Part shown: in pieces, positions 8,160 to 8,935 of the stretch
Layout: each line of letters opens with the position of its first letter
How positions within the stretch are numbered: position 1 is the first letter of the stretch
Assembly: GCF_030013595.1 (NCBI RefSeq)
Contig: NZ_CP122768.1
Direction: 5' to 3' (one strand)
From: Escherichia coli
GTDB lineage: Bacteria; Pseudomonadota; Gammaproteobacteria; Enterobacterales; Enterobacteriaceae
DNA length: 64,000 nucleotides
Notes under the pieces: model-generated
Told to the model about the DNA's origin: nothing
The model's database searches: none
What the model saw: only the letters and a program-made list of their open reading frames with translations
Translations under genes and position numbers: made by a program

Positions 8160-8935
8160 TCTTTAAAGAAGAGCTCGTACGAAGGTACGGGCTTTTTTTT
8201 CGTATATTGCACACACCGGGGGATGAGAAGCCCCGACCGGGGTTCGACAACTGGCGACAGCCAGTTGGACAGACCGTGAACGCAGTGAGCGGGCTGCCCG
8301 CAGGGCGAGCGAAGCGAGTCAATCCCCCCTCACCGCCATCTTTAAAGAAGAGCTCGTACGAAGGTACGGGCTTTTTTTTCGTATATTGCACACACCGGGG
8401 GATGAGAAGCCCCGACCGGGGTTCGACAACTGGCGACAGCCAGTTGGACAGACCGTGAACGCAGTGAGCGGGCTGCCCGCAGGGCGAGCGAAGCGAGTCA
8501 ATCCCCCCTCACCGCCATCTTTAAAGAAGAGCTCGTACGAAGGTACGGGCTTTTTTTTCGTATATTGCACACACCGGGGGATGAGAAGCCCCGACCGGGG
8601 TTCGACAACTGGCGACAGCCAGTTGGACAGACCGTGAACGCAGTGAGCGGGCTGCCCGCAGGGCGAGCGAAGCGAGTCAATCCCCCCTCACCGCCATCTT
8701 TAAAGAAGAGCTCGTACGAAGGTACGGGCTTTTTTTTCGTATATTGCACACACTGGGGGATGAGAAGCCCCGACCGGGGTTCGACAACTGGCGACAGCCA
8801 GTTGGACAGACCGTGAACGCAGTGAGCGGGCTGCCCGCAGGGCGAGCGAAGCGAGTCAATCCCCCCCTCACCGCCATCTTTAAAGAAGAGCTCGTACGAA
8901 AGTACGGGCTTTTTTTTCGTATATTGCACACACTG
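8160..8935 (+). repeat. Tandem array: 4 full + 1 partial copies of a 179-bp unit immediately 3' of serX
   Basis: Unit boundaries at 8160, 8339, 8518, 8697 and 8877 (179/179/179/180 bp, one extra C in copy 4); each unit carries a terminator-like hairpin CGTACGAAGGTACG + T9 and ends in GTCAATCCCCCCTCACCGCCA, a near-copy of the tRNA 3' end; few point differences between units. Confidence 0.9.

What the first reader, a model, noticed from the sequence alone, without database searches (positions are those of the whole stretch)
8160..8935. 4.3 tandem copies of a 179-bp unit directly 3' of tRNA-Ser, each copy carrying a terminator hairpin and a tRNA 3'-end remnant
Units are nearly identical (a handful of point differences and one extra C), so the array is young or homogenised. 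Each unit begins with a terminator-like hairpin plus T9 and ends with GTCAATCCCCCCTCACCGCCA, which mimics the last ~18 nt of serX. The architecture parallels the 178-bp repeats recalled downstream of tyrT in E. coli. Because 179 is not a multiple of 3, any ORF through the array changes frame every unit, arguing against a conventional coding role; the region could act as a recombination/integration target or as a multi-terminator. I cannot tell whether the copy number differs from reference strains without an alignment.
Basis: seen in the sequence. Interest (0 to 1): 0.55.

Follow-up and report, generated by a model that had tools for sequence, protein, structure and literature searches.

The report
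Known RtT repeat array after serX
The 179-bp tandem repeats after the serine tRNA gene serX are the already-catalogued "RtT" tRNA-linked repeat, also present in E. coli K-12; its copy number varies between strains, and each unit folds into an RNA that imitates the end of its neighbouring tRNA.

Summary
In detail: 4.3-4.4 tandem units of 179-180 bp start inside tRNA-Ser(GGA) (serX). Each unit carries a strong terminator hairpin plus T8 (not T9) and ends in the last 19 nt of serX. It is not new. Each unit matches Rfam RF00391 (RtT RNA, the tyrT repeat family) full-length at 42-43 bits (cut-off 45). The orthologous K-12 array is annotated by PGAP as "RtT sRNA". Copy number is polymorphic in unit steps (0.3 to 6.6 copies; MG1655 3.4, DH10B/DH5-alpha-type 4.4), so it is not an assembly artefact. 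The partial last unit is simply serX's native terminator. The 14-nt core used by the OI-48/SRL-type islands is present five times, but in 5,426 genomes this island family's left end always joins the tRNA, never an RtT unit. In 37 non-redundant units from four tRNA classes, the closing helix and an internal T-arm-like hairpin covary with the identity of the upstream tRNA. This argues for an RNA-level, tRNA-mimicking structure. The long ORFs through the array match no protein family.

The parts
8009..8037 (+). sigma-70-like promoter upstream of serX (TTGACC-17-TAAATT)
   Evidence: Consensus scan. It is the only + strand promoter-like site in 7700-9400, and none lies inside the repeats.
8072..8159 (+). 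tRNA-Ser(GGA) gene, serX. Its last 19 nt (8141-8159) are the first copy of the repeated tRNA end.
   Evidence: ARAGORN; Rfam tRNA 53.8 bits; orthologous to serX b1032 of MG1655.
8160..8338 (+). Repeat unit 1 (179 bp): terminator hairpin 8165-8200 (core stem 8173-8192, T8 8193-8200) + RtT element 8204-8338
   Evidence: fold; Rfam RtT 43.1 bits.
8339..8517 (+). Repeat unit 2 (179 bp, identical to unit 1); RtT element 8383-8517
8518..8696 (+). Repeat unit 3 (179 bp, identical to unit 1); RtT element 8562-8696
8697..8876 (+). Repeat unit 4 (180 bp; C>T before the 5' G-run, one extra C in the 3' C-run); RtT element 8739-8876
   Evidence: (42.0 bits).
8877..8937 (+). Partial unit (61 nt) = serX's native terminator region (hairpin with GAAA loop, T8, then 20 nt)
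   Evidence: The same 59-61 nt are all that separates serX from the ycdU-side flank in the 0.3-copy strain FWSEC0010.
8146..8159 (+). 14-nt core CCCCCTCACCGCCA (direct repeat of OI-43/OI-48/SRL-type islands). Further copies at 8325-8338, 8504-8517, 8683-8696 and 8863-8876.
   Evidence: 5 matches, 0 expected; junctions read; PMC3064760.
8938..8975 (.). Imperfect inverted repeat CCCCCCCCGCCC...GGGCGAGGGG just distal to the array; possibly a decayed RtT remnant (inference only)
   Evidence: Read; shares GGGCGAG and G/C runs with the RtT body; not tested.
9071..10057 (-). ycdU (328 aa), convergent with serX; the array fills the gap between the two 3' ends
   Evidence: ORF list; annotated as YcdU under the match.

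Best explanation
This is the serX-linked array of RtT repeats: the serine-tRNA subtype of the tRNA-linked repeat family first described downstream of tyrT (Rfam RF00391). Each unit is a copy of serX's own intrinsic terminator, followed by a structured element of about 135 nt that ends in the last 19 nt of serX, including CCA. A locus with one RtT has two direct copies of an 80-bp stretch (19-nt tRNA end plus 61-nt terminator region). Unequal homologous recombination or replication slippage between these, and then between whole units, expands and contracts the array. This gives the unit-step polymorphism seen across E. coli. The RtT element is constrained at the RNA level. Its closing helix pairs a 5' G-rich strand with the tRNA-derived 3' strand. 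An internal hairpin followed by UUCGA imitates the 5' half of the cognate T-arm. The RNA therefore resembles an acceptor/T-arm minihelix of its own tRNA with a free ...CCA tail. The following steps are inferred, not shown. Transcripts that read through the terminator are cut and trimmed at each tRNA-like end by the tRNA-maturation machinery, releasing RtT RNAs as reported for rtT RNA at tyrT. The repeated terminators make termination before convergent ycdU cumulative. The physiological role of the RNA is unknown; for tyrT a link to the stringent response has been proposed.
For: Family identity: all four units match RF00391 over model positions 1-130 at 42.0-43.1 bits, E 2-5e-6. Orthologous K-12 units score 46.3 and tyrT units 133-137. 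PGAP annotates 'RtT sRNA' in the same gap in K-12 and many other strains. serW, the other tRNA-Ser(GGA) gene, carries two units of the same subtype. Recombination model: inserts between conserved flanks are about 59, 240, 421, 603 and 780 bp in a spread sample. There are 6.6 copies in strain EA7, 3.4 in MG1655 and 4.4 in NEB5-alpha. The 0.3-copy state is exactly tRNA plus one terminator. Inner units are identical and variants sit at the distal edge. Structure: MFE folds close with the predicted helix. In 37 non-redundant units the consensus fold recovers the closing helix and the internal hairpin. 96.9% of cells are paired vs 90.9% shuffled, and the covariation score is 0.305 vs 0.183, with 0 of 500 shuffles reaching either; all slid registers score lower. 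The 5' strand is the complement of the cognate tRNA's 3' strand in the Tyr, Ser-GGA, Ser-GCT and Arg-TCT classes. Own-class duplexes are about -16 kcal/mol vs -8 to -12 cross-class. Relative to K-12, the window's unit lost one G from the 5' strand and one C from the 3' strand, keeping the helix matched. Terminator: dG -20.5, z -5.2. rtT RNA being one repeat unit of the tyrT operon, with a proposed stringent-response link: PMC3318445 and bioRxiv 10.1101/2024.07.17.603846, both citing Bosl & Kersten 1991.
Against: The window's own units fall just below Rfam's gathering score (43.1 and 42.0 vs 45). The nearest genome (NZ_CM149870, 99.8-100% identical) accordingly has no RtT annotation. A strong intrinsic terminator stands before every RtT copy and no promoter-like site lies inside the repeats, so RtT RNA from this locus may be scarce or absent. 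In strain YZ22MPE6 a 42-kb island separates a five-unit array from serX, and 0.3-copy strains lack RtT here altogether, so the array is dispensable. Much of the covariation is one deep Tyr-versus-Ser split, with only a few within-class events, so independent events are few. The 3' strand could be kept tRNA-like by gene conversion rather than by selection. No expression, processing or phenotype data could be examined here.
Confidence: 0.85

Rival explanations
1. The array has no function of its own. It is a neutral, recombination-driven amplification of a relic element, and the RtT sequence persists only because it is continually copied and converted against the adjacent tRNA.
For: Copy number ranges from 0.3 to 6.6 with no obvious constraint. 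The array survives when displaced 42 kb from its tRNA promoter. A terminator precedes every unit.
Against: Gene conversion from the tRNA can explain the 3' strand but not the matching 5' strand, which is not a contiguous tRNA sequence. Compensatory changes in two helices across four tRNA classes and many genera indicate selection on pairing.
Confidence: 0.25
2. The array is selected as a multi-terminator or insulator that stops serX transcription from running into convergent ycdU, and possibly the reverse.
For: Five strong hairpin-T8 terminators in series. The A-tract upstream and T-tract downstream give a hairpin usable on both strands; the scan flags the minus-strand version. The locus lies between convergent genes.
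Against: Strains with a single terminator (0.3 copy) are common. The terminator is serX's own and is duplicated passively with each unit. This reading does not explain the conserved 135-nt RtT body or its covariation. tyrT-type units have no such hairpin.
Confidence: 0.12
3. The repeated tRNA ends serve as extra attachment sites for the P4-family integrase islands that target serX and serW (OI-43/48, SpLE1, SRL-PAI type).
For: The exact 14-nt direct repeat of these islands occurs 5 times in the window (PMC3064760). serX is occupied by islands in many strains.
Against: A chimeric query of RtT body plus island left end found 0 of 5,426 genomes with at least 80% coverage. All best hits begin at the shared 19 nt and lie under an annotated tRNA-Ser. 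In YZ22MPE6 the island sits between the tRNA and a five-unit array. Only one island family and only the left junction were tested.
Confidence: 0.04
4. The repeats encode protein: either a small tpr-like peptide in each unit or the 83-162-aa ORFs that run through the array.
For: tyrT's unit holds the annotated 29-aa tpr ORF. The serX unit keeps the same ATG and first residues, MRS.D.GST. ORFs of 83-162 aa exist on both strands.
Against: The serX ORF stops after 18 codons. Many units have GTG in place of ATG, and the ATG lies inside a conserved RNA motif directly abutting the closing helix. Compensatory changes in the hairpin alter the peptide (F>P, Q>R). The long ORFs start with TTG or GTG, change frame each unit, and match no NCBIfam family.
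Confidence: 0.03
5. Assembly artefact: a single copy expanded by the assembler.
For: Near-identical tandem units are a classic source of mis-assembly.
Against: The same array, in discrete unit steps, is present in thousands of complete genomes, including MG1655 (3.4 copies) and several independent K-12-derivative assemblies (4.4 copies). One genome matches the window's flanks at 100% with the same insert length (H61).
Confidence: 0.01

Closest known systems
RtT RNA / rttR and the 178-bp repeats of the tyrT operon (Rfam RF00391; Egan & Landy 1978, Rossi et al. 1981 and Bosl & Kersten 1991, cited from my own knowledge and via PMC3318445)
   Same: Tandem units of about 180 bp immediately 3' of a tRNA gene. 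Each ends in the last 19 nt of that tRNA, including CCA. Shared core motifs (GATGAGAAGC..CGAC...GGTTCGA, CCCGMAGGGCGAG), the same closing helix and internal hairpin, and a full-length Rfam match.
   Different: Only about 43-46 bits against 133-137 for tyrT units. The helices are re-tuned to tRNA-Ser. Every unit carries an intrinsic terminator hairpin plus T8 that the tyrT spacer lacks. The tpr ORF is truncated to 18 codons. There are 4.3 copies here against 3.1 at tyrT.
The orthologous serX array of E. coli K-12 (PGAP 'RtT sRNA' features; unannotated in the curated MG1655 record)
   Same: Same position between serX and ycdU, same architecture, about 97% identity; 4.4 copies in NEB5-alpha, DH10B and RV308.
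   Different: The K-12 unit is 181 bp. The window's unit is 179 bp, with one G and one C fewer in the two strands of the closing helix, A>C after CCA, and loop GAAA>GAAG. This drops it below Rfam's cut-off. MG1655 has 3.4 copies.
serW-linked RtT units
   Same: Same tRNA species, same subtype, same terminator-plus-RtT unit.
   Different: 178-bp spacing and two units in BL21; GGTGAGAA instead of GATGAGAA; several hairpin substitutions.
att sites of OI-43/OI-48/SpLE1/SRL-PAI (P4-family integrase islands at serW/serX)
   Same: The 14-bp direct repeat is the serX 3' end, and every unit carries it.
   Different: No evidence that RtT-borne copies are used. The resemblance follows from the units copying the tRNA end.
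tRNA 3' external transcribed spacer RNAs (e.g. 3'ETS-leuZ) and tRNA minihelix substrates
   Same: An RNA made from tRNA-operon trailer sequence, with acceptor/T-arm-like stacking and a CCA end (inference).
   Different: No sponge or base-pairing target is known or was tested. RtT is repeated and tRNA-specific.

Membership tests
RtT RNA (Rfam RF00391) | Covariance-model score at or above the curated gathering score (45 bits) | tested here: not met
   Window units score 43.1 (three units) and 42.0, full-length, E 2.4e-6 to 4.5e-6. Orthologous K-12 units differ by a few bases and score 46.3, which passes. The shortfall is 2-3 bits, caused by the 1-nt shortening of both helix strands.
RtT RNA (Rfam RF00391) | Lies directly 3' of a tRNA gene, in tandem units that each end in that tRNA's 3' end with CCA | tested here: met
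   The same holds for 171 of 185 units in other genomes, which have a same-strand tRNA within 1.5 kb upstream.
RtT RNA (Rfam RF00391) | Conserved secondary structure (closing helix and internal hairpins) shared with tyrT units | tested here: met
   Folds; consensus and pair counts (96.9% paired; 0 of 500 shuffles reach the observed pairing or covariation).
RtT RNA (Rfam RF00391) | Released as a discrete stable RNA by processing of the tRNA-operon transcript | not testable with these tools
   No transcript data available. The terminator before each unit makes this uncertain for serX.
RtT RNA (Rfam RF00391) | Annotated as RtT at the orthologous locus by an independent pipeline | tested here: met
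   PGAP 'RtT sRNA' features between serX and ycdU in K-12 derivatives and many other strains.
tyrT 178-bp repeat with tpr | Each unit contains the 29-codon protamine-like tpr ORF | tested here: not met
   tpr translates as MRSFDQGSTRAPARERCRRQRPEGRSAQR. The serX unit gives MRSPDRGSTTGDSQLDRP then a stop.
Island attachment site (OI-43/48, SRL-PAI type) | Contains the 14-bp core CCCCCTCACCGCCA | tested here: met
   Five exact copies; the core was read at island junctions and is reported in PMC3064760.
Island attachment site (OI-43/48, SRL-PAI type) | Islands are actually found joined to it | tested here: not met
   For RtT-borne copies, 0 of 5,426 genomes. The tRNA's own copy is used.
Intrinsic (Rho-independent) terminator | G+C-rich hairpin immediately followed by a U-run | tested here: met
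   8-bp GC-rich core stem, GAAG loop, T8; 16 bp with A/U-tract pairing; dG -20.5, z -5.2. Activity itself was not tested.

The most novel reading that the evidence does not exclude
RtT elements are a widespread class of tRNA-specific acceptor/T-arm mimics. Each copy co-evolves with the tRNA gene it follows (Tyr, Ser-GGA, Ser-GCT, Arg-TCT; Enterobacterales, Pseudoalteromonas, possibly a Paenibacillaceae MAG). The processed RNA, with its free CCA tail, would act as a decoy or competitor for factors that read uncharged tRNA ends, such as RNase P and 3' trimming enzymes, the CCA-adding enzyme, RelA on the ribosome, or tRNA-targeting toxins. Array copy number would then set the dose. This would give a mechanism for the old, unexplained link between rtT RNA and the stringent response.
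Probability: 0.12. Interest if true: 0.6.

Novelty: already known. Interest (0 to 1): 0.22.

Why it matters
For this window it matters little. The array is a catalogued repeat present in the reference laboratory strain, and its presence here is ordinary. Three points have practical value. (1) The 179-bp variant falls 2-3 bits under Rfam's cut-off, so annotation pipelines silently miss it in genomes like this one. (2) The locus is a natural unit-step length polymorphism that differs even between K-12 derivatives, which is useful as a typing marker and a caution for short-read assemblies. (3) The closing helix tracks the identity of the upstream tRNA in four tRNA classes. This is a clean argument that RtT, whose function has been unknown since 1991, is constrained as a tRNA-mimicking RNA, and it suggests concrete experiments.

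Tried and rejected
- Integration at RtT-borne cores: tested with a chimeric query and rejected.
- Coding: the long ORFs match no NCBIfam family, and the tpr homologue is truncated.
- Assembly artefact: rejected by the unit-step series across complete genomes.
- Internal promoters in the units: none found by the consensus scan.
- First genome contigs pattern was mis-spaced by one N and found nothing. I corrected it after a local check.
- The primary paper by Bosl & Kersten (PMC329039) is not held.
- Searches for serX plus RtT found no paper. A bare 'rttR' search returned noise. A tyrT/178/tandem search gave nothing relevant. The current version of PMC10542128 no longer mentions RtT.
- Weak Rfam hits to sX4, Thr_leader and Plastid-psbl-rps4 over the tRNA or terminator are far below their cut-offs and were ignored.
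- A full census of all 5,426 genomes was not possible, since only 60 rows are shown per search. Copy-number frequencies come from spread samples.

Full report
**1. The observation**

The sequence at 8160-8935 is as described. Tandem Repeats Finder reports one array, 8145-8937, period 179, 4.4 copies, 99% matches. ARAGORN places tRNA-Ser(GGA) at 8072-8159 on the + strand.

Read in register from the base after CCA, units 1-3 (8160-8338, 8339-8517, 8518-8696) are identical. Unit 4 (8697-8876) has one C>T and one extra C. The 61-nt partial unit (8877-8937) shares that C>T and has one change in the hairpin loop.

A 30-nt core of the unit occurs four times against zero expected, and nowhere else in the window. 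The hairpin after each CCA is strong: 16 bp with A-tract/U-tract pairing, dG -20.5 kcal/mol, z -5.2.

Small corrections:
- The T-run is T8, not T9.
- The repeated stretch begins inside the tRNA, at about 8141.
- The tRNA-end copy is 19 nt, perfect in unit 4 and one C short in units 1-3.

**2. What it is**

An Rfam scan matches each unit, over the full 130-position model, to RF00391 (RtT RNA). Scores are 43.1, 43.1, 43.1 and 42.0 bits with E about 2-5e-6, just under the 45-bit gathering score.

The flanking genes are ghrA, ycdX, ycdY and ycdZ on one side and ycdU on the other. This is the serX locus of E. coli.

In K-12 derivatives the same gap holds a 181-bp x 4.4 array. PGAP annotates three "RtT sRNA" features in it. 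Those units score 46.3 bits, against 133-137 for the tyrT archetype.

The curated MG1655 record has nothing annotated between ycdU (b1029) and serX (b1032), but it contains a 181-bp x 3.4 array. serW, the second tRNA-Ser(GGA) gene, carries two units of the same subtype.

So the array is a known element at a known place. The window's variant is 2 nt shorter per unit, and for that reason alone it slips under the annotation threshold. The nearest genome (NZ_CM149870, 99.8-100% identical) has no RtT feature.

**3. Copy number**

I searched with a query made of the window's flanks with the array removed. In a spread sample, 23 rows had both flanks joined. They gave these insert lengths:

| Insert length | Units | Rows |
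|---|---|---|
| about 59 bp | 0.3 | 2 |
| about 240 bp | 1.3 | 7 |
| about 421 bp | 2.3 | 6 |
| about 603 bp | 3.3 | 3 |
| about 780 bp | 4.3 | 4 |
| 398 bp | odd length | 1 |

Strain EA7 has 6.6 copies and strain 1-62 has at least five. Within the K-12 lineage, MG1655 has 3.4 copies while NEB5-alpha, DH10B, RV308 and HST04 have 4.4. The array is therefore real, polymorphic in whole-unit steps, and able to change on short timescales.

About 38% of genomes (2,055 of 5,425) have both flanks within 2 kb. The rest have islands or a different gene content after serX.

**4. Anatomy and origin**

In the 0.3-copy strain FWSEC0010, serX is followed by exactly one hairpin-T8 terminator plus about 20 nt. 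That is the window's partial fifth unit. The terminator is therefore serX's own.

A locus with one RtT has two direct copies of an 80-bp stretch: the 19-nt tRNA end plus the 61-nt terminator region. Unequal recombination between them deletes or duplicates the unit. This inference explains three things:
- the n.3 copy-number series;
- the identity of the inner units;
- the location of variants at the distal edge.

**5. The RtT body is a tRNA-specific structure**

I scanned one genome per species with a motif shared by the tyrT- and serX-type units. They hold 185 units. The nearest upstream same-strand tRNA within 1.5 kb was:

| Upstream tRNA | Units | Note |
|---|---|---|
| tRNA-Tyr(GTA) | 98 | |
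| tRNA-Ser(GGA) | 64 | |
| tRNA-Ser(GCT) | 8 | Pseudoalteromonas |
| tRNA-Arg(TCT) | 1 | Paenibacillaceae MAG |
| none | 14 | |

In every class the strand just 5' of GRTGAGAA is the reverse complement of that tRNA's 3' T-stem/acceptor strand:

| tRNA | 5' strand | 3' strand |
|---|---|---|
| Tyr | GGGGAAGG | CCTTCCCC |
| Ser-GGA | GGGGGGG | CCCCCCC |
| Ser-GCT | GAGAAGG | CCTTCTC |
| Arg-TCT | CCAGGAGGG | CCCTCCTGG |

The internal hairpin followed by TTCGA copies the 5' half of the cognate T-arm.

On 37 non-redundant units, RNAalifold recovers both helices with compensatory pairs. Column pair 13-135 is AU in 21 and GC in 14. Column pair 25-33 is UA in 21 and CG in 15.

The control counts are clear:
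- 96.9% of cells are paired against 90.9% in shuffles.
- The covariation score is 0.305 against 0.183.
- No shuffle of 500 reaches either value.
- Every slid register scores lower.

A register-independent duplex test gives about -16 kcal/mol for own-class strand pairs and -8 to -12 for cross-class pairs. The window's own unit shows the same logic in miniature: relative to K-12 it lost one G from the 5' strand and one C from the 3' strand.

Caveat: most of the signal comes from one deep Tyr/Ser split plus a few within-class events. The 3' strand could also be kept tRNA-like by gene conversion. The matching 5' strand, however, is not a contiguous piece of the tRNA, so selection on pairing is the simplest reading.

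**6. How it most likely works**

Shown:
- family identity;
- architecture;
- unit-step polymorphism;
- a conserved fold that resembles an acceptor/T-arm minihelix with a free CCA tail.

Inferred:
- Transcripts reading through the terminator are processed at each tRNA-like end, releasing RtT RNAs. This is as reported for rtT RNA at tyrT (Bosl & Kersten 1991, cited through PMC3318445 and 10.1101/2024.07.17.603846).
- The terminators act cumulatively ahead of convergent ycdU.

Unknown: any physiological role.

Against a strong role at this locus:
- A good terminator precedes every unit.
- No promoter-like site lies within the repeats.
- Some strains lack RtT here entirely.
- In YZ22MPE6 a 42-kb island separates the array from serX.

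**7.

Integration target. The islands at serX are the OI-48/SpLE1/SRL-PAI type, with a P4-family integrase. They are flanked by a 14-bp direct repeat equal to the last 14 bp of serX (PMC3064760). I read the same core at the O157:H7 SS17 and YZ22MPE6 junctions.

The window holds five exact copies of this core. But a chimeric query of RtT body plus island left end found no genome of 5,426 with at least 80% coverage. Every best hit begins at the shared 19 nt under an annotated tRNA-Ser. The idea is not supported for this island family.

Multi-terminator. This is plausible as a side effect. However, the single-terminator state is common, and the idea leaves the RtT body unexplained.

Coding. The ORFs of 83-162 aa through the array match no NCBIfam family. 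The tpr-homologous ORF is cut to 18 codons. Its start codon lies inside a conserved RNA motif, and the helix-compensating changes alter the peptide.

**8. Comparison with what is known, and novelty**

This is the Ser-GGA subtype of the RtT repeat, at its usual locus, and it is already annotated in K-12 by PGAP. It differs from the tyrT archetype in four respects:
- helices tuned to tRNA-Ser;
- an intrinsic terminator in every unit;
- a truncated tpr frame;
- low covariance-model scores.

Novelty: already known.

The side result is that the RtT helices track the identity of the upstream tRNA in four classes and beyond Enterobacterales. I did not find this stated in the papers I could search. 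I could not read the primary 1978-1991 literature, so I do not claim it as new.

**9. Verdict**

The element is ordinary for E. coli, and interest is low. A modest residual interest lies in the tRNA-mimic reading of RtT.

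Noticed in passing
window 9071-13182 (and beyond), minus strand: Downstream of the array lies an intact gene string: ycdU, a 314-aa ACP S-malonyltransferase, a 462-aa hypothetical protein and a 262-aa outer-membrane lipoprotein-sorting (LolA-like) protein. O157:H7 shows an ABC permease next in line. In K-12 this string is cut short: ymdE is a pseudogene remnant of the malonyltransferase next to IS3.
   Followed up: partly
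L132 (MG1655 NC_000913.3 1095500-1099000) versus L001 (NEB 5-alpha): K-12 derivatives differ by one whole unit at serX: MG1655 has 3.4 copies, while NEB5-alpha, DH10B, RV308 and HST04 have 4.4. The curated MG1655 record annotates nothing in the array, and locus tags b1030 and b1031 are absent between ycdU (b1029) and serX (b1032). These are presumably withdrawn ORF calls (inference).
   Followed up: partly
L099 (Paenibacillaceae MAG, CALGAO010000012.1), unit about 40 nt downstream of tRNA-Arg(TCT) at 1748-1823 (-): An RtT-like unit in a Firmicute MAG. It is flanked on both sides by the same GGGGCGAC-T7 terminator, its closing helix (CCAGGAGGG/CCCTCCTGG) matches tRNA-Arg, and it has no encoded CCA. 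This is a single case and could be chance or contamination.
   Followed up: partly
L012, L040, L083, L090, L106, L128 (Pseudoalteromonas spp.): RtT-like units downstream of tRNA-Ser(GCT), outside Enterobacterales. Only L090 keeps a recognisable tRNA 3' end at the unit's end; the others look decayed at the 3' side.
   Followed up: partly
L003 3055-3082 (-), BL21 serW-clpA spacer: A CRISPR-DR4 Rfam hit (50.1 bits, cut-off 35) lies just beyond the serW RtT units, in the infA-serW-clpA interval. It is outside the finding and outside the window.
   Followed up: no
window 8938-8975: Directly after the array is an imperfect inverted repeat (CCCCCCCCGCCC...GGGCGAGGGG). It shares GGGCGAG and G/C runs with the RtT body. 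It is also present after the lone terminator in 0.3-copy strains, so it may be a decayed ancestral RtT unit.
   Followed up: no
H68, NZ_CP100914.1 (strain ET761), serX-ycdU gap: The insert between conserved flanks is 398 bp. This is not a whole number of 179-181-bp units plus 61, and no RtT is annotated, suggesting a unit with an internal deletion of about 21 bp.
   Followed up: no
L011 48290-48480 (YZ22MPE6, first unit after the island): The RtT unit nearest the island junction carries changes in the terminator stem (AAAAAAAAGCCCGTAC) and in the T-loop-like motif (GGGGGTCGAC instead of GGGGTTCGAC). It is not annotated as RtT, whereas the four units beyond it are.
   Followed up: no
L006, L008, L002, L010 (several E. 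coli strains): In many strains the RtT array is followed directly by a DUF2726 gene and phoH. The whole ycdU...pgaABCD segment that sits there in K-12 is absent, so the region between serX and phoH is itself variable.
   Followed up: no
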